Shown piece by piece: positions 2,624-7,548 of a DNA stretch of 24,610 nt. The DNA lies in contig JBBTUM010000134.1 in the NCBI GenBank assembly GCA_038063795.1, positions 1 through 24,610 of the forward strand, read 5' to 3'. Position 1 is the first letter of the stretch; every line of letters begins with the position of its first letter. The notes beneath the pieces were generated by a model. That model saw nothing but the letters and a program-made list of their open reading frames with translations, was not told the origin of the DNA and searched no databases. A program made the translations under genes and the position numbers. The DNA is from Patescibacteria group bacterium (lineage in GTDB: Bacteria; Patescibacteriota; Patescibacteriia; UBA1558; 2-01-FULL-52-15).

Positions 2624-2835
2624 TGCTGCTCCCGAACCTCAAGGTCACGGTCGCTGAGGTCACTGACGCCTTTCTCCTTCTGAAAACCGAGCAAGGCCAG
2701 ACCATCACCGTACCAAAGAATCTCATGCCGGGTGCAAGTGAGGGAATGCAGTTTTATCTGGCAGCAGATGGGAAGCCGCTTGTGAGCGCCGATACGCACG
2801 CGAAGGACGTGCTGAACGAGGTGATGGGAAAATAA
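2623..2835 (+). CDS. Small hypothetical protein, DUF3006-like beta-rich pattern
   Basis: 70 aa; ATG overlaps the hsp20 stop (TAATG); L.TEQGQTITVPKNLMP.ASEG pattern. Confidence 0.7.
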   Translation: MLLPNLKVTVAEVTDAFLLLKTEQGQTITVPKNLMPGASEGMQFYLAADGKPLVSADTHAKDVLNEVMGK

Positions 2836-2836
2836 T

Positions 2837-3631
2837 ATGGTCCATGAAGATCTCCAAAACTTAGGACTCAGCGACAAAGAAGCAAGCGTCTATCTTGCCG
2901 CGCTCGAGCTGGGAAGCGACACTGTACAGCGCATTGCTCAGAAAGCAAAGGTGAAACGAGTAACCACGTATGTGGTGCTTCAAACACTTCTCAAAAAAGG
3001 ACTCGTCAGCAAAATAGATAAGAGCAAAAAAACTCTTTTCATCGCTGAGGAGCCTTCTCGTCTTGTACGATTTATCGAGCAGCAGATCAAGGATCTTGAC
3101 TTCAAAAAAAATACCATTCAAGGCCTGATATCGCAATTGAAATTGATAACCAACAGTAATCCGAATAAGCCTATTGTTCGCTTTTACGAAGGCAAAGAGG
3201 GTGTAGACGCGCTTATGGACGAATTTATCAAGGAGTTTAGATCGAATGATACGACGAAACAAGATGCTTCAGATGATTCACATAATTTATTTATCGCATA
3301 TTCCCGGGATTTGTTAGAAAAAATTTTTTCAAAGGAAGAACGAGAGAGAGGACGAAAAGAGCGACTTAAAGCAAAAATTGAAGCACGCCCTCTATATAAT
3401 TGGCAAAAACCCACTGAAGACTTCAAGCTCAGCAAAGGGATTAAACTATCGTATGATCTCTTTCCCTTCCCCTGTGATATAGCTGTTTTTCAAGATAAGA
3501 TTCGCTTGATATCTCTTACAGCCGAACCAACCGCTGTCCTTATTATTGATAAAAATCTTGCCGAAGGACTACGATCTCTATTCAAGCTCGCGCATCATGG
3601 AGCTCAAGAGTTAAAAAAAAATAAAATTTGA
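2837..3631 (+). CDS. TrmB-family (winged-HTH) transcriptional regulator
   Basis: LGLSDKEASVYLAALELG..IAQKAKVKRVTTYVVLQTLLKKGLV HTH, then KPIVRFYEGKEG and a PLD-like C-terminal sensor region. Confidence 0.9.
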   Translation: MVHEDLQNLGLSDKEASVYLAALELGSDTVQRIAQKAKVKRVTTYVVLQTLLKKGLVSKIDKSKKTLFIAEEPSRLVRFIEQQIKDLDFKKNTIQGLISQLKLITNSNPNKPIVRFYEGKEGVDALMDEFIKEFRSNDTTKQDASDDSHNLFIAYSRDLLEKIFSKEERERGRKERLKAKIEARPLYNWQKPTEDFKLSKGIKLSYDLFPFPCDIAVFQDKIRLISLTAEPTAVLIIDKNLAEGLRSLFKLAHHGAQELKKNKI

Positions 3632-3645
3632 TCGAGAAATGATTA

Positions 3646-3688
3646 GGGCCCGGCCTCACGCTTGTGCGTGATGCCGGGCCCCTTTTTG
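3646..3688 (+). terminator. Intrinsic terminator of the hsp20-TrmB operon
   Basis: GGGCCCGGC..GCCGGGCCC stem with inner TCACG/CGTGA, followed by CTTTTTG. Confidence 0.8.
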
Positions 3689-3689
3689 C

Positions 3690-4018
3690 TTTGCCTGCTA
3701 CTTTTCTCCTGTCCTGGACTGAAGGTCCAGCTCATTGGAGCGTACAGAGCTCGCAACCAAACCCGCTTTCGTCTTCGGGATCTAGGCCGCAGATGAGTGA
3801 ACCGACTAACCGCTAGTCTCCCATGTTCATGTTACCTCCAAAGAAATAGTGACTTTGACACCGGCAGGGCCATTTTAGCACGGCGGGAGCGCTGCCCGAG
3901 GTCTACCTCGGGCAGCGCTTCGCTCAGGCGCTAGTGGCCCACTATTTACCTCCCTTTCTGCCCTTAAAAGGGCTGAAAATTGATCAGTTAGCGAAAAAAA
4001 AGATATTAATGTAAAGAA
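3690..4018 (-). ncRNA. Candidate structured small transcript with two SD-led tripeptide mini-ORFs
   Basis: Consensus promoter at 4025-4053; no ORF of 60 aa or more; GGAGGT followed by GTG GGC CAC TAG (3942-3931) and by ATG GGA GAC TAG (3824-3813); 14-bp hairpin 3888-3919. Ends are approximate. Confidence 0.45.
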
Positions 4019-4024
4019 CCGGAC

Positions 4025-4053
4025 AATATAGCGCACGGCGGCTTTTATGTCAA
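4025..4053 (-). promoter_or_regulatory. Sigma70 promoter (leftward) of the accessory block
   Basis: TTGACA-17 nt-TATATT. Confidence 0.75.
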
Positions 4054-4181
4054 TAGCAAGTAACAGAAAGCGTTACATCAATATTTCATTTCGAATAATC
4101 TAAAATAGCATAATTATAATCAAAATAATACTCTATATTAGCAGTATAATTGATTGTTCATTGAATTAATGTCATCGAGAC

Positions 4182-4210
4182 TTGACAGAAATTTGATAAT
4201 GCGCTAGGAT
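4182..4210 (+). promoter_or_regulatory. Sigma70 promoter (rightward) of the accessory block
   Basis: TTGACA-17 nt-TAGGAT preceded by an AT-rich tract. Confidence 0.75.
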
Positions 4211-4445
4211 GCTCTGTTAAGTCATTTTTGACTGTTCATTGTCAGATTTCGTTACAATCGCACTCCCAGCAGCTAATGTACCGCGATGGTAAATAATCAC
4301 CTTGATCGCGCACTACGAACCTGCTGGTCGTACTATCTCCCCTTTATGGGGAGACCTGGGCAAGTATAAACCTGCTTTTCCGGGTCTCCCTGTATAGGAC
4401 GAGTAACGGCAACTTGAAAAAATCAGGTCAAAAAAGGAGGTCGCC

Positions 4446-4631
4446 ATGCGGACGACGTCGCGCGCTCAGTCACTCGAACAGAAGATTATGGAGTTCCTGA
4501 AGCGGCACGGGTGTACCGCCGACGGCCGCAAACTGTCTGACGCTCCTAGCGCATTCCAGCTCAAGATGGAGCGCAAGGTCGCGACAGGACAGGGCTCCAA
4601 GGGGTGGCGCAGAAAAACACGTCGCCCTTGA
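4446..4631 (+). CDS. Small basic hypothetical protein (61 aa)
   Basis: AAGGAGG SD at 4434-4440, 5 nt before ATG; Arg/Lys-rich C-terminus. Confidence 0.7.
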   Translation: MRTTSRAQSLEQKIMEFLKRHGCTADGRKLSDAPSAFQLKMERKVATGQGSKGWRRKTRRP

Positions 4632-4930
4632 ACCAATCATTTTCGCGCATGCAGGTCGGCGCAGCGGCCCAGGCATGTATCAGGGTTCCGCCCTGTTTCC
4701 GATACCGAGGCCTGCAGGCTCCGGAACGGAAAAACAGCGGACGGGGGTTCGATAGTGGCGGCTATCGACGACTCAGGGAGCAGGGCACTTTGACCGCCAG
4801 CTCTGCTCCCACTGCGCATTAGTTCTTCGAAACCGTAGCCAAGCAGGAAAGGCTTTTGTGTCAACCTGGCGATGGCAGGTGGCGAGAGCCGAGTACATGA
4901 GTCTTGGTGAATAACCGAAAGGGGGAAACG

Positions 4931-5416
4931 TTGAAAAACGTCGCCTTCGTCACCTACAACACGGTAGGTGACAAGCTTTCGAGCGGCTGGCACGGGTCCA
5001 ACGGCCGACGTGCGCTGGTCCTCCAGAATAGCAGCGGTGATCGCTGGGCGGTAGATAAATTCTACCGAAGCGATCCTGCGAGCTATCGTCGGAGTGACCA
5101 CGCAAGCCACGTTATGGACGAGATCAGCAACCTCTGGAATGAACTCCAGACGGTATTGTCTGAGATCGACCACATCGTGGTATACGTCGGATCACGTGGA
5201 TCGGAGCAAGCCATTGCGCTTGCTGCGCAACTGCCCGCATCCAAGGTCACGTTCGTCGGCTGTGACTGTGGCATCCTCGTAAAGGAAGCCATGGTCCAGG
5301 CGGCTGGACTAGCCAAGGCGCGGCGATTGCTCTGCGAGTGTGGTGGTCACCGGACTATGGAGACTCTCTTTGAGAGCTTCATGGAAACTGGTGAGCTCCT
5401 ACCCGTGGCTGCGTAA
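4931..5416 (+). CDS. Hypothetical protein (161 aa) with VVYVG, CDC and CECGGH motifs
   Basis: TTG start preceded by AAAGGGGG; protein-like alpha/beta pattern. The ORF-track start at 4904 lacks an SD. Confidence 0.8.
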   Translation: MKNVAFVTYNTVGDKLSSGWHGSNGRRALVLQNSSGDRWAVDKFYRSDPASYRRSDHASHVMDEISNLWNELQTVLSEIDHIVVYVGSRGSEQAIALAAQLPASKVTFVGCDCGILVKEAMVQAAGLAKARRLLCECGGHRTMETLFESFMETGELLPVAA

Positions 5417-5569
5417 GCTCTCGCTTACCGAGAACGGTAACCTTCGTGGAGAAGGTGCGCACGGCTATAACGGTCGCGGTGCGCAAGCTGCCAAAGGGGA
5501 GGCCCTCCACAATCGCCCATGCGAATCCCAGAGTCGCAACCGAAAACTGCGACTACGAAAGGCGAACGC

Positions 5570-5770
5570 ATGGCCACGAGGAACAGGAGAAACTGCATCC
5601 AGTCCCTCACCGGCGCAAGCTTTGCTTGCGCCTCCACCAGAGCTGGTAATGTCATTATCATTTCTGGCGGGGTCCGATGGTTCCTCGATAGGGTTGACGG
5701 GCGCATCCATCACCTCATATTTGTCCGTGGTTTCCATGGGCTGCCGATGGTCCTTCGTGACCAAAGGTAA
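5570..5770 (+). CDS. Small hypothetical protein (66 aa)
   Basis: ATG preceded by GAAAGGCG; beta-strand-like pattern NVIIISGGVRWFLDRVDGRIHHLIFVRG. Confidence 0.55.
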   Translation: MATRNRRNCIQSLTGASFACASTRAGNVIIISGGVRWFLDRVDGRIHHLIFVRGFHGLPMVLRDQR

Positions 5771-5988
5771 GGGAGCTGGCAACCTTCGAATATGAGGCGG
5801 GTGCATGGTGATCAACCTAAACCACTTGAAACGCCACACGCCAACGTTTCAAGCGTTGCCCGCGAGAGTGCAATGTTAGAGGTGAGCAACTGATGTGAAA
5901 GCCAACGGAATGGCTTCACAACAGGGAAACCTCGAACTCTCGCATCGTACTTTTCATCAACGAAATAAACCACCACAAGGAGGCAACT

Positions 5989-6198
5989 ATGGCATGCTAT
6001 TGCAGCTACAAAGTCCGCTATCGTGGCCGCCTTGTCGAAATCGGGCTGCGATATGGATGCTACAACGGCGCCATCGTGCGAGAAGGCAAACCGCTTGCCT
6101 TCTCCGATCCCTACACCTGCGAGGATCTCAGCAGAGATACCAAAAAGCTGCTGCGGATGTTCAGGCGTCAGGTGCCGAAAACGGGTTGTTGCCCGTGA
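5989..6198 (+). CDS. Small Cys-rich hypothetical protein (69 aa)
   Basis: AAGGAGG SD at 5977-5983; six Cys (CYC..C..C..CC). Confidence 0.7.
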   Translation: MACYCSYKVRYRGRLVEIGLRYGCYNGAIVREGKPLAFSDPYTCEDLSRDTKKLLRMFRRQVPKTGCCP

Positions 6199-6303
6199 AG
6201 TACTATGGCGCAAATCTTTATTTGCGCCCTCTACCAGAACTGTGGAGTCGCTCGACAGTTGCGGTGGGGTTTATTCGTCCTCACACTGAAAAAAGGAGGA
6301 GTC

Positions 6304-6630
6304 ATGGCCAGGATCGATCTGATGTTCTGCGACGATGGTACAGGCAATGTTGCGTACGGTAGAACGATCGAGGAAGACCAGCAAGAAGATCGGGCCAATA
6401 GTGGTGACAGCACGATCGTCGCCCACGTGACCTTTGAGGAAAACGACGAAGATTTCCGGGGCGCCGTGGTGGACGTAATCTATGCAACCCACACCATCGA
6501 GTGTGCTGGCTGCGCTGGCGAGCTCGGTTGCACGGTGTTCGAAAGGTTCATTTCCGAGATCTTCAAGGCTGGCCTCGAGTATGGTCGCGCATCTGCGCTT
6601 CAATCGACAACCCCTTCCAAGGAGGAATGA
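6304..6630 (+). CDS. Acidic hypothetical protein (108 aa)
   Basis: AAGGAGG SD at 6293-6299; CAGC..C motif; C-terminal FKAGLEYGRA helix. Confidence 0.75.
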   Translation: MARIDLMFCDDGTGNVAYGRTIEEDQQEDRANSGDSTIVAHVTFEENDEDFRGAVVDVIYATHTIECAGCAGELGCTVFERFISEIFKAGLEYGRASALQSTTPSKEE

Positions 6631-6632
6631 CC

Positions 6633-6926
6633 ATGAAGACCGCTATCGCTGTCGTCGCCATCGCGCTGCTGCTCGCCGGCTGCCTCATGCAGGGCGGCAC
6701 GCTCGTAGAGGAATTCTCCTCGATCTCTTGCTCCTGCGAGGTGCGCGAGATCAAGCAGGGCGAATTCAGGATCACAGCGACCTGGGACGTTTTCAATCCC
6801 AGGACAGGGGAGATCATTCCTCTGCTGCCGAACCGAACGTCCAAGCGTGTCGGTTCCATCGAGGAGGTGAAGAGCTTCCTCGAAACGCTGGCGAAAGAGC
6901 CAGCGTGTGCAGGACTTCCGCACTAA
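6633..6926 (+). CDS. Putative lipoprotein (97 aa)
   Basis: AAGGAGG SD at 6619-6625; MKTAIAVVAIALLLAGC signal peptide with lipobox. Confidence 0.7.
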   Translation: MKTAIAVVAIALLLAGCLMQGGTLVEEFSSISCSCEVREIKQGEFRITATWDVFNPRTGEIIPLLPNRTSKRVGSIEEVKSFLETLAKEPACAGLPH

Positions 6927-6964
6927 CCAATGTCCTGAGCCAAGACATTAAATTGGCTCGATTT

Positions 6965-7150
6965 TTTTAAACAAAAAACCGCTCGAGGCTTGTAAATATT
7001 TATCTGCACCCAAGAAATTTTTTCCAAGCAGTTACCTAGCCGGAGCCAGATAAAACTAAGAAAAAACCCCATGCTTGTCGTGGATGCAGATAAATAATCG
7101 CTAACCTTAGCGGTTTTCTATTCTGCCATCAATTGTCAATCTTCAGGCAA
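6965..7150 (-). ncRNA. Candidate rod-shaped small RNA (6S-like) or long inverted repeat
   Basis: Nested inverted repeats 6975-6983/7109-7117 and 6998-7012/7081-7095; consensus promoter at 7157-7185; U-rich 3' end. Ends are approximate. Confidence 0.45.
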
Positions 7151-7156
7151 CTTTGA

Positions 7157-7185
7157 ATACTACCATCGAACCACCGCTCTGTCAA
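7157..7185 (-). promoter_or_regulatory. Sigma70 promoter pointing back into the accessory block
   Basis: TTGACA-17 nt-TAGTAT. Confidence 0.7.
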
Positions 7186-7256
7186 GCACACAGGTGTTCC
7201 ACGGATTATCCACCAAGCATCAACAGCCTGCATAACGTTGAAACGCTTCCGGCCCC

Positions 7257-7285
7257 TTGCACGACGTTTACTTTTGTTCTATAGT
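7257..7285 (+). promoter_or_regulatory. Sigma70 promoter of the rpmF-nusB-rnc-smc operon
   Basis: TTGCAC-17 nt-TATAGT, 50 nt upstream of rpmF. Confidence 0.65.
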
Positions 7286-7335
7286 AAGTTTGCTTTTTTG
7301 ATGCAATTTAATAATTCAAGGGATCAGACTACCGC

Positions 7336-7548
7336 ATGGGAACACCGACAAAGAAACGCACCAGCGGGCAACGCAAACGACGTGCATCGCACTTCGCGCT
7401 CAGAAGCAAAAGCGTACGCCCCTGTCCGAAATGCAAGAAGCCGGTACTACCTCATCACGCATGCGCTTTTTGTGGCTACTACAAAGGACGCCAGGTCATG
7501 ACCGTTGCTGTCGAGGCACGAAAACCGGGAACAGCAGCCAAAAAGTAG
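7336..7548 (+). CDS. rpmF: 50S ribosomal protein L32 (Zn-ribbon type)
   Basis: PKKRTSGQRKRRASH..CPKCKKPVLPHHACAFCGYYKGRQV. Confidence 0.97.
   Translation: MGTPTKKRTSGQRKRRASHFALRSKSVRPCPKCKKPVLPHHACAFCGYYKGRQVMTVAVEARKPGTAAKK

What the first reader, a model, noticed from the sequence alone, without database searches (positions are those of the whole stretch)
3690..7190. Self-contained accessory block: three promoters, two candidate RNAs and a polycistron of small orphan ORFs separated by structured spacers
Between the TrmB terminator and the rpmF promoter are back-to-back TTGACA-17 promoters (4025-4053 minus, 4182-4210 plus) and a third convergent one (7157-7185 minus). The plus transcript carries six ORFs of 61-161 aa. 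The first five are each preceded by 100-300 nt of hairpin-rich sequence, although the genome elsewhere has overlapping or near-leaderless genes. There is no integrase, transposase or known defence gene. Inference: an RNA-controlled small-protein system in which processing or protein binding at the spacers sets expression, with flanking RNAs acting as regulators.
Basis: partly seen in the sequence, partly recalled or inferred. Interest (0 to 1): 0.75.

Follow-up and report, generated by a model that had tools for sequence, protein, structure and literature searches.

The report
TrmB-headed cassette array with RNA spacers
The block is a real 4-kb accessory island of an ultra-small (CPR) bacterium, in which a regulator gene and paired promoters drive a string of swappable small genes separated by conserved folded RNA, in the slots where related islands carry self-cutting hammerhead ribozymes.

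Summary
All three promoter-like sites are at the stated coordinates. I find five Shine-Dalgarno (SD)-led ORFs, not six (61, 161, 69, 108 and 99 aa). The spacers fold far better than shuffled sequence.

The block is not self-contained. It is the cargo arm of an island (2837-6968) that begins with the TrmB gene and is missing at this site in three relatives.

The same layout recurs in unrelated chromosomal sites across CPR bacteria: TrmB, then a ~380-nt leftward RNA with 3-6-codon mini-ORFs, then an AT-rich divergent promoter pair, then a GC-rich array of small genes.

The 161-aa protein is not an orphan. It belongs to an uncharacterised four-cysteine alpha/beta family (about 300 clusters) that usually lies downstream of a TrmB gene. 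Its 5' and 3' flanks are structured RNAs with strong covariation. In sibling islands type III hammerheads occupy those slots, so RNA processing or insulation at the spacers is the best reading. Cleavage here is untested.

The third promoter belongs to something else: a ~117-nt core-genome sRNA found in 109 of 121 genomes of the class and absent from Rfam.

Earlier follow-ups in this scan described the same island type on other DNA. My literature searches found no description of it.

The parts
2837..3631 (+). TrmB-family regulator gene (264 aa). It is the conserved head of the island and is AT-rich (GC 0.40).
   Evidence: Pfam PF01978, E 3e-14, above the cut-off. It is absent together with the block in G001, G003 and G009. 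It lies upstream on the same strand in about 18 of 24 sibling loci.
3646..3681 (.). GC-rich hairpin terminator after TrmB, followed by a T-run on the + strand. It is also the probable end of the leftward transcript.
   Evidence: Inverted repeat I7: 16-nt arms, 94% complementary. Sequence read.
3640..4018 (-). Leftward ~380-nt structured transcript carrying two SD-led mini-ORFs: GTG-GGC-CAC-TAG at 3942-3931 and ATG-GGA-GAC-TAG at 3824-3813.
   Evidence: MFE z-score -6.0. SD-led mini-ORFs of 3-6 codons occur in 7 of 8 islands: 16 on this strand, 0 on the other, 0.64 +/- 0.83 in shuffles.
4025..4053 (-). Sigma-70-like promoter of the leftward transcript.
   Evidence: 11 of 12 consensus matches. 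A promoter at the equivalent place, 390-470 nt after the TrmB stop, is present in L011, L016, L023 and L050.
4170..4210 (+). Sigma-70-like promoter of the cassette operon (4182-4210), with a candidate operator TGTCA-N8-TGACA (4170-4187) overlapping the -35 box.
   Evidence: 10 of 12 matches. It sits in a 28% GC island that recurs in all 8 loci compared. The TGTCA...TTGACA motif recurs in L011, L050 and L023. The operator role is an inference.
4217..4445 (+). Structured 5' leader of the operon.
   Evidence: z-score -5.9. It is 85-95% identical in relative L128, while the ORF that follows is replaced there.
4446..4631 (+). 61-aa basic ORF (pI 11.5) with a strong SD. It is a swappable cassette.
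   Evidence: In L128 the segment 4360-4625 is replaced by unrelated sequence between conserved flanks. No Pfam, PADLOC or PHROGs match.
4632..4832 (+). Non-coding spacer, 86-95% conserved with L128.
   Evidence: It is more conserved than the variable middle of the neighbouring coding sequence.
4833..4930 (+). Conserved structured 5' element of the 161-aa gene. It has three nested helices, a GGAAA / GAGUACAUAAG internal loop, and then the SD.
   Evidence: Alignment A3 (11 distinct loci): 10 of 17 pairs compensatory; 95.5% paired against 25-46% when slid. nhmmer finds it only directly upstream of this gene.
4931..5416 (+). 161-aa four-cysteine (CxC...CxC) alpha/beta protein. It is the conserved core gene of this island subfamily.
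   Evidence: >120 homologues; 295 clusters at 50% identity. AF2 model pLDDT 93.5. Generic flavodoxin/CheY-like fold with no specific structural match. Invariant residues: T8 Y9 N10 W69 Y85 C111 C113 K118 C135 C137 G139.
5417..5580 (+). Conserved ~165-nt multi-helix 3' element directly after the stop codon. It has seven helices and invariant motifs CUCUCGCU, GCUGCCAAA and CGAAAGGCGAA.
   Evidence: Alignment A2 (8 distinct loci): 22 of 35 pairs compensatory; 90.3% paired against 32-41% when slid; 0 of 500 shuffles reach this. The G-U pairs show it acts as + strand RNA. No Rfam match at E<5.
5581..5988 (+). Long ORF-free structured spacer, including a 14-bp hairpin at 5823-5855.
   Evidence: z-score -5.3. 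Hairpin. No homology by blastn or tblastx in sibling loci.
5989..6198 (+). 69-aa Cys-rich ORF with a strong SD.
   Evidence: tblastx homologues in the sibling islands L086, L091 and L111 next to the 161-aa gene, in varying order.
6199..6303 (+). Structured spacer. Its core, 6222-6265, is shared with L011, where it lies upstream of a different gene.
   Evidence: z-score -4.6. 82% identity over 44 nt with L011 4006-4049.
6304..6630 (+). 108-aa very acidic ORF (pI 4.3) with an ECAGCAG motif.
   Evidence: Three homologues at 68-88% identity, in other neighbourhoods. One lies directly after a 161-aa family gene. The AF2 model is poor (pLDDT 50).
6627..6926 (+). 99-aa predicted lipoprotein (signal peptide plus LAGC lipobox). 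Its start overlaps the previous stop (ATGA).
   Evidence: A single homologue at 90% identity.
6937..6968 (+). Intrinsic terminator of the operon: GAGCCAA, a 9-nt loop, TTGGCTC, then GATTTTTTT.
   Evidence: Read from the sequence. The 9-nt loop exceeds the scanner's limit, so it is not listed.
6990..7185 (-). Not part of the island. This is a core-genome ~117-nt rod-like sRNA (core 7105-6990) with its promoter at 7185-7157.
   Evidence: Alignment A4 (15 genomes): 24 of 42 pairs compensatory; 94.8% paired against 37-51% when slid. Covariance model R1 hits 109 of 121 genomes of the class, scoring 80-120 bits on this strand against 24-40 on the other. No Rfam match.

Best explanation
The block is the cargo arm of a TrmB-headed accessory island (2837-6968), a recurrent and apparently undescribed locus type of CPR (Patescibacteria) bacteria.

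How it is built:
- The TrmB-family regulator gene is followed by an AT-rich control region with two divergent sigma-70-type promoters.
- The left promoter makes a ~380-nt structured RNA with SD-led mini-ORFs.
- The right promoter makes one long transcript that carries interchangeable small-protein cassettes.
- Each cassette has a strong SD, and the cassettes are separated by folded RNA modules.

How it most likely works. The modules act at the RNA level to cut or insulate the long transcript into single-gene units with structured, stable ends, and so set the expression of each cassette. Hammerhead ribozymes do this in sibling islands. Here, non-hammerhead structured elements flank the core 161-aa gene.

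Shown: the island is an insertion; the architecture recurs; cassettes are swapped between conserved flanks; the flanking RNAs covary; hammerheads occupy the equivalent slots elsewhere.

Inferred: transcription as one RNA, cleavage or insulation at the modules in this window, TrmB control through a TGTCA-N8-TGACA operator, and every protein function.
For: 1. Insertion. G003, G009 and G001 have DUF3006, then about 200-550 nt, then the sRNA and rpmF, with no TrmB and no block. G004 carries a different insert at the same site: a 240-aa ORF plus a ParE/RHH toxin-antitoxin pair.
2. Same architecture in 8 loci with different neighbours: TrmB, about 400 nt of GC-rich sequence, a 26-36% GC island holding the promoter(s), then a GC-rich array.
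3. TrmB lies upstream on the same strand in about 18 of 24 distinct loci of the 161-aa family.
4. Cassette swap. Against L128, the promoter, leader and spacer are 85-95% identical, but the 61-aa segment is replaced. The 69-aa and 108-aa genes recur in other islands in a different order.
5. Covariation in the 5' and 3' elements, with controls.
6. Type III hammerheads lie on the coding strand only, in the spacers of 7 distinct sibling islands. In L023 they sit on both sides of the 161-aa gene, and in L099, L105 and L116 30-160 nt after its stop.
7. In this sample, loci with hammerheads and loci with the 5'/3' elements do not overlap.
8. Hammerheads that flank single variable genes and cut long transcripts in vitro are published for prophages (PMC3088659).
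9. All 5 island ORFs have strong SDs and 0 of 17 neighbouring genes do. The 16S 3' end of same-order relatives keeps CCUCC.
10. The spacers fold at z -4.6 to -5.9, against -1.7 and +0.3 for the controls.
Against: - The window has no hammerhead or any other known ribozyme (Rfam at E<5; regex over the window and the whole genome). Cleavage here is argued only by analogy of position.
- The 5' and 3' elements occur only next to the 161-aa gene. They could therefore be gene-specific UTRs rather than general linkers.
- The other spacers of the window share almost no sequence with sibling islands.
- The split between loci with hammerheads and loci with these elements follows sequence relatedness of the 161-aa gene. 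It may reflect ancestry rather than functional replacement.
- No RNA-seq of this organism was found. One sediment metatranscriptome gave only 79-247-nt contigs on the coding sequence (4976-5271), and DNA carry-over cannot be excluded.
- No mobility gene explains how the island moves.
Confidence: 0.55

Rival explanations
1. The structured flanks are ordinary gene-specific UTRs of the 161-aa gene. The 5' element would be a riboswitch or protein-binding translational operator next to the SD, and the 3' element a stabiliser or terminator. No transcript cutting would be involved, and the rest of the block would be loosely packed small genes.
For: Both elements are found only next to this gene. The 5' element ends at the SD and contains a GGAAA / GAGUA internal loop of the kind proteins bind (the motif reading rests on my own knowledge). 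No ribozyme core is present in the window.
Against: Hammerheads occupy the same two slots in sibling islands. No known riboswitch class matches. A 165-nt, seven-helix element placed straight after a stop codon is unusual for a plain stabiliser. This reading does not explain the cassette swaps between conserved non-coding flanks.
Confidence: 0.25
2. The block is a decayed prophage or integrative-element remnant. Its small genes would be leftover morons, and the RNA structures relics of phage transcript processing with no present role for the host.
For: Published hammerhead-flanked genes lie mostly in prophages (PMC3088659). The family is sporadic: 3 weak hits in 400 representative genomes, yet present in many CPR lineages and in a Nanoarchaeota MAG. 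One homologue follows an array of about 28 tRNAs (L029). The site is an insertion hotspot.
Against: No integrase, capsid, terminase or any PHROGs match. No relative of the 161-aa protein was found in IMG/VR viral contigs. The head architecture is conserved across 8 loci, and the 161-aa protein and both RNA elements keep conserved residues and compensatory pair changes.
Confidence: 0.12
3. Most of the region is non-functional: chance ORFs in GC-rich intergenic DNA, or an assembly chimera.
For: Two ORFs (61 and 99 aa) have almost no homologues. The bin has 6.8% contamination.
Against: The same 7 kb is 100% identical on a 158-kb contig of another public assembly, and DNA contigs from several runs cover it. 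Three ORFs have homologues. All five have strong SDs. The promoter, leader and spacers are conserved in L128.
Confidence: 0.03

Closest known systems
Clustered hammerhead ribozymes flanking single genes or short gene blocks in prophage operons (Perreault et al. 2011, PMC3088659)
   Same: A long same-strand transcript carries variable, mostly unknown small genes, each set off by a structured RNA. Sibling islands of this locus carry canonical type III hammerheads in exactly these slots.
   Different: This window has no hammerhead. The slots next to the core gene hold two other conserved structures. The array is headed by a TrmB regulator and a divergent promoter pair, lies in CPR chromosomes, and has no integrase or phage genes.
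Discovery logic for twister, twister-sister, pistol and hatchet: new self-cleaving classes found beside hammerheads or beside the genes hammerheads associate with (review PMC6765202)
   Same: A conserved, covarying RNA sits where relatives have a hammerhead and shares its gene association.
   Different: Self-cleavage of the 5' or 3' element has not been tested. Neither matches any Rfam ribozyme family.
Integron cassette arrays and CALINs (attC clusters lacking an integrase)
   Same: Promoter-distal strings of small, mostly unknown, interchangeable ORFs separated by structured repeats, driven from one end. Cassette order differs between relatives.
   Different: No IntI. The spacers are not a repeated attC-type imperfect palindrome. 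They are multi-helix, mostly unrelated to one another, and their G-U pairs show selection on the RNA of one strand. An attC model was not run.
6S RNA
   Same: A promoter-driven, rod-like, highly conserved small RNA.
   Different: The conserved core is about 117 nt and has one 10-nt one-sided internal loop, not a two-sided central bubble. RF00013 gives no match in the genome.

Membership tests
Hammerhead-punctuated gene array (Perreault 2011 type) | Canonical hammerhead cores (CUGANGA ... GAAA with stems I-III) between genes on the coding strand | tested here: not met
   None in the window (Rfam at E<5; regex) and none convincing in the whole genome. The feature is met in the sibling islands L023, L030/L107, L097, L099, L105, L116 and L119.
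Hammerhead-punctuated gene array (Perreault 2011 type) | Variable genes set off singly by the RNA elements | tested here: met
   Five SD-led ORFs separated by structured spacers. Cassettes are swapped or reordered between relatives.
Hammerhead-punctuated gene array (Perreault 2011 type) | Prophage context (integrase and phage genes nearby) | tested here: not met
   No integrase or phage family in the island or its flanks. No IMG/VR hit.
TrmB-family transcription regulator (the 264-aa protein) | N-terminal TrmB-type winged helix-turn-helix | tested here: met
   PF01978, residues 6-68, 53.1 bits against a cut-off of 25.6.
TrmB-family transcription regulator (the 264-aa protein) | Binds an operator at the promoter it controls | not testable with these tools
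   Only a recurrent TGTCA-N8-TGACA motif over the -35 box in 4 loci.
Integron / CALIN | IntI tyrosine recombinase at the head of the array | tested here: not met
   The only ORF of more than 170 aa in the island is TrmB.
Integron / CALIN | attC sites (R''-L''...L'-R' imperfect palindromes) after each cassette | not tested
   No attC model was available. The spacers share no repeat with one another.
Known self-cleaving ribozyme classes and riboswitches (for the 5' and 3' elements) | Match to a curated covariance model | tested here: not met
   cmscan of 3600-7350 against all 4227 Rfam 15 families at E<5 returned only three chance-level hits elsewhere.
Anti-phage defence systems | A protein matching a known defence family | tested here: not met
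   PADLOC: no hit for the five ORFs. Only the HTH part of TrmB resembles the CasR/Csa3 HTH.
6S RNA / SRP RNA (for the sRNA at 7105-6990) | Rfam model match; central bubble (6S) or GNRA-capped domain IV (SRP) | tested here: not met
   RF00013, RF00169 and RF01854 give no match in the genome. The structure has a one-sided loop and a UNCG-like apical loop.

The most novel reading that the evidence does not exclude
The ~165-nt 3' element (5417-5580), the ~100-nt 5' element (4833-4930), or both, form a new class of self-cleaving or processing RNA. In this branch of TrmB-headed CPR islands it would have replaced the hammerhead, making the island a natural plug-in expression platform whose cassettes are released from one transcript by RNA catalysis.
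Probability: 0.15. Interest if true: 0.85.

Novelty: new variant of a known kind. Interest (0 to 1): 0.68.

Why it matters
CPR bacteria make up a large share of bacterial diversity, yet almost nothing is known about how they express or exchange accessory genes.

This locus type would be a compact, reusable expression platform: a regulator, twin promoters and a transcript split by RNA modules, into which small genes are swapped. It offers three things:
- two covariation-supported RNA structures that can be tested directly for self-cleavage, the route by which several ribozyme classes were found;
- a large uncharacterised four-cysteine protein family with a confident model;
- as a by-product, a near-universal small RNA of a whole CPR class that no database names.

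If the spacers only stabilise or regulate, the locus is still a useful case of gene-by-gene control in a minimal genome.

Tried and rejected
- Large known RNA (rRNA, group II intron, GOLLD/ROOL, tmRNA, RNase P) filling the ORF-poor stretch: no Rfam hit.
- Direct or inverted repeats marking att sites or target duplications at the island ends: only short, chance-level repeats.
- Other copies of the block in the genome: none.
- Function of the 161-aa protein. All of the following gave only generic Rossmann/flavodoxin/CheY-like resemblance or nothing: Pfam (weak MptE-like hit, E 0.008), PADLOC, PHROGs, a PDB sequence profile (only spurious designed-repeat hits), Foldseek against PDB and AFDB, VIA-wide (best Z 8.1, within the noise range), ESM Atlas, and longer family members scanned for extra domains.
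- Structure of the 108-aa protein: pLDDT 50, unusable, so no fold search was run.
- IS200-like reading (a small ORF with structured ends, about 760 nt): rejected. There is no HuH/Y1 motif or Pfam hit, the gene is single-copy, and the fold differs.
- Transcription evidence: no RNA run of this organism. One sediment metatranscriptome holds only short contigs on the coding sequence.
- SRP RNA identity for the sRNA: rejected for lack of the defining motifs.
- My first dinucleotide-shuffle script hung. I replaced it with a swap shuffle, which if anything understates the z-scores.

Full report
**What is at the coordinates**

The window is contig C134 of a 1.16-Mb, 210-contig CPR-type genome.

- Between the TrmB gene (2837-3631; PF01978, E 3e-14) and rpmF (7336-7548) there is no ORF longer than 170 aa.
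- Five ORFs carry strong Shine-Dalgarno (SD) sequences (AAGGAGG or AAGGGGG): 4446-4631, 4931-5416 (TTG start), 5989-6198, 6304-6630 and 6627-6926. The last is a lipoprotein with an LAGC lipobox. I found no SD-led sixth ORF.
- None of 17 flanking genes in the window has such an SD. The 16S rRNA of two same-order relatives ends in GGAUCACCUCCUUUCU, so the anti-SD is there to be used. Strong SDs do occur elsewhere in the genome.
- Rfam finds only two tRNAs in the window. At E<5 it finds nothing meaningful in 3600-7350.
- The spacers fold much better than dinucleotide-preserving shuffles: z -5.9 for the leader, -5.3 for 5581-5988 and -4.6 for 6199-6303. Parts of the TrmB and nusB genes give -1.7 and +0.3.
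- A public assembly carries the same 7 kb at 100% identity on a 158-kb contig, and DNA contigs from several runs cover it. The block is therefore not an assembly artefact.

**The block is an insertion, and TrmB belongs to it**

- In relatives G003, G009 and G001 the Hsp20-DUF3006 genes are followed within about 200-550 nt by a conserved ~110-nt element and rpmF. They have no TrmB and no block at this site. The inserted unit is therefore 2837-6968, about 4.1 kb.
- G004 carries a different insert at the same site: a 240-aa ORF plus a ParE/RHH toxin-antitoxin pair. The site is a hotspot for accessory DNA.

**The 161-aa protein is not an orphan**

- It has more than 120 homologues at 90% clustering and 295 clusters at 50%. 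All are small, single-domain and without a Pfam family.
- They come from Uhr-, Lloyd-, Yanofsky-, Moranii-, Peregrini- and Saccharibacteria, an 'Obscuribacterales' MAG and a Nanoarchaeota MAG.
- The family is rare among species representatives: 3 weak hits in 400 genomes. No relative was found in IMG/VR.
- Invariant residues are T8, Y9, N10, W69, Y85, C111, C113, K118, C135, C137 and G139.
- The AlphaFold model is confident (pLDDT 93.5). It is a three-layer alpha/beta fold with the four cysteines at the ends of strands 4 and 5.
- Foldseek, VIA-wide, AFDB, the ESM Atlas and a PDB profile search give only generic Rossmann/flavodoxin/CheY-like resemblance. A metal site is likely. The function is unknown.

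**The architecture recurs**

- In contexts as different as MreC-PBP2, transketolase-aldolase, IleRS and Hsp20, the 161-aa gene lies downstream of a TrmB-family gene, inside a run of small unannotated ORFs.
- Over all loci fetched, about 18 of 24 distinct loci with at least 2.5 kb of upstream sequence have a same-strand TrmB gene upstream. Three have it on the other strand.
- In eight loci the order is the same: TrmB, about 400 nt of GC-rich sequence, a 26-36% GC island, then a GC-rich array. A consensus rightward promoter lies in that island in every case.
- In five of the eight, a consensus leftward promoter lies 390-470 nt after the TrmB stop and 130-200 nt before the rightward one.
- A TGTCA-N8-TGACA motif overlaps the -35 box of the rightward promoter in four loci. 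It is a candidate operator, which is an inference.
- In three loci the array ends at the tmRNA gene. Here it ends at another small-RNA gene.

**Cassettes are swapped**

- Against the related contig L128, the promoter, leader (4132-4358) and spacer (4640-4930) are 85-95% identical. The segment holding the 61-aa ORF is replaced by unrelated sequence.
- The 69-aa ORF has homologues in three other islands, upstream or downstream of the 161-aa gene.
- The 108-aa ORF has three homologues. One lies directly after a 161-aa family gene, and two lie upstream of infC.
- The 99-aa and 61-aa ORFs are near-orphans.
- A close relative (L011) has 90% identity in DUF3006, but only 61% in TrmB and 76% in the 161-aa protein, and its cargo set is different and longer.

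**The spacers next to the core gene are conserved RNA structures**

- The 165 nt after the stop codon (5417-5580) align in eight distinct loci. RNAalifold gives seven helices. 22 of 35 pairs show compensatory double changes. 90.3% of cells pair, against 32-41% when partners are slid by 1-3 columns, and no shuffle of 500 reaches the observed values.
- The ~100 nt before the start codon (4833-4930) align in eleven loci. They form three nested helices, 10 of 17 pairs are compensatory, and 95.5% of cells pair against 25-46% when slid.
- Frequent G-U pairs place both elements on the + strand as RNA.
- nhmmer finds both only next to this gene.
- The coding sequence itself is unusually structured: z -10 here, and below -4.8 in 6 of 8 homologues.

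**Hammerheads in the same slots**

- A core-and-stem search finds canonical type III hammerheads (CUGUC, stem I hairpin, CUGAUGAG, stem II, CGAAACAG) in the spacers of seven distinct sibling islands: L023, L030/L107, L097, L099, L105, L116 and L119. All lie on the coding strand.
- Rfam scores four of them at E 1.5e-5 to 3e-4, below its gathering threshold.
- In L023 they flank the 161-aa gene on both sides. In L099, L105 and L116 one lies 30-160 nt after its stop.
- Loci with hammerheads and loci with the 5'/3' elements do not overlap in this sample. The split follows sequence relatedness, so it is suggestive rather than decisive.
- Perreault et al. 2011 described multiple hammerheads flanking single variable genes in prophages and showed cleavage of ~2-kb transcripts in vitro (PMC3088659).
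- New ribozyme classes have been found precisely because they share neighbourhoods with hammerheads (PMC6765202).
- Full-text searches combining hammerhead with CPR or Patescibacteria terms found no paper describing this arrangement.

**The two 'flanking RNAs'**

- The leftward transcript (about 4018-3640) is strongly structured (z -6.0). It carries SD-led mini-ORFs of 3-6 codons: M-G-H and M-G-D here, M-x-G-G-x in other loci.
- Across eight islands there are 16 such mini-ORFs on this strand and none on the other, against 0.64 +/- 0.83 in shuffles. In WIN, L011 and L050 they lie at nearly the same distance from the promoter. Their role is unknown.
- The rightward 'third promoter' (7185-7157, minus strand) drives a different thing: a ~117-nt rod-like sRNA (core 7105-6990).
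- This sRNA is conserved in relatives that lack the island. It shows 24 of 42 compensatory pairs, and 94.8% of cells pair against 37-51% when slid.
- A covariance model finds it in 109 of 121 genomes of the class, nearly always as a single copy (two tandem copies in G467 and G483), and far better on this strand.
- It has an invariant one-sided loop, CACGACAAGCAUGG. It is not in Rfam, and it has neither the 6S bubble nor SRP domain IV. It is not part of the island.

**Verdict**

Three of its points need correcting: the unit includes TrmB, three of the ORFs are not orphans, and the right-hand RNA is a core-genome gene.

The locus is one more instance of the TrmB-anchored, ribozyme-punctuated variable array that earlier follow-ups of this scan reported on other genomes. 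I reached the same picture from this window's own data.

New here are the 161-aa family with its two covarying RNA flanks, which are candidates for a non-hammerhead processing element, the quantified mini-ORF RNA, and the class-wide sRNA.

Cleavage, transcription and every protein function remain untested.

Noticed in passing
window 6990-7105 (-), promoter 7185-7157 (-): A ~117-nt rod-like sRNA with an invariant one-sided loop CACGACAAGCAUGG. Covariance model R1 finds it in 109 of 121 genomes of the class, nearly always as a single copy, next to varying genes. Covariation is strong. It is not in Rfam 15 and its identity is unknown.
   Followed up: yes
whole genome G000 and 20 relatives of the order: No SRP RNA (RF00169; RF01854 in G000 only), no Ffh M domain (PF02978) and no SRP54-type GTPase domain above the cut-off (PF00448, which covers Ffh and FtsY) in any of 21 genomes. 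The same searches ring in 12-14 of 14 control genomes (7 of 14 for RF01854). Either the order lacks the SRP pathway or the search misses it. This deserves its own check.
   Followed up: partly
window 3942-3931 and 3824-3813 (-); L011, L050, L022, L025, L014, L016: SD-led mini-ORFs of 3-6 codons (MGH, MGD, MxGGx) on the leftward transcript next to TrmB, in 7 of 8 islands. There are 16 on that strand, 0 on the other and 0.64 in shuffles.
   Followed up: partly
window 4931-5416: The coding sequence of the 161-aa gene folds far better than shuffles (z about -10). The same holds in 6 of 8 homologues (z -4.8 to -13).
   Followed up: partly
L145 (G004:C79:500-3200): At the same chromosomal site a relative carries a 240-aa ORF with no Pfam match and a ParE/RHH toxin-antitoxin pair instead of the TrmB island. 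The gap between DUF3006 and the sRNA is an insertion hotspot.
   Followed up: yes
L029 1-7700: A MAG contig labelled Obscuribacterales carries about 28 tRNA genes in an array directly upstream of a 161-aa family gene. This may be a phage or mobile-element fragment, or a binning error.
   Followed up: no
L023 10625-10963: Group I intron match (E 1.9e-8, just below the Rfam gathering score) inside what looks like a tRNA gene, within a sibling island.
   Followed up: no
L014 8331-8696, L022 8625-8967, L025 15204-15556: In three sibling islands the cassette array ends at the tmRNA gene. L025 also carries a Ro60 (TROVE)/vWA gene just upstream of it.
   Followed up: no
window 2750-2782 and 7025-7057: A 33-nt inverted repeat (76% complementary) between the 3' part of the DUF3006 gene and the sRNA gene. 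Given the sRNA's strand, the two RNAs would be alike rather than complementary. It may be chance.
   Followed up: no
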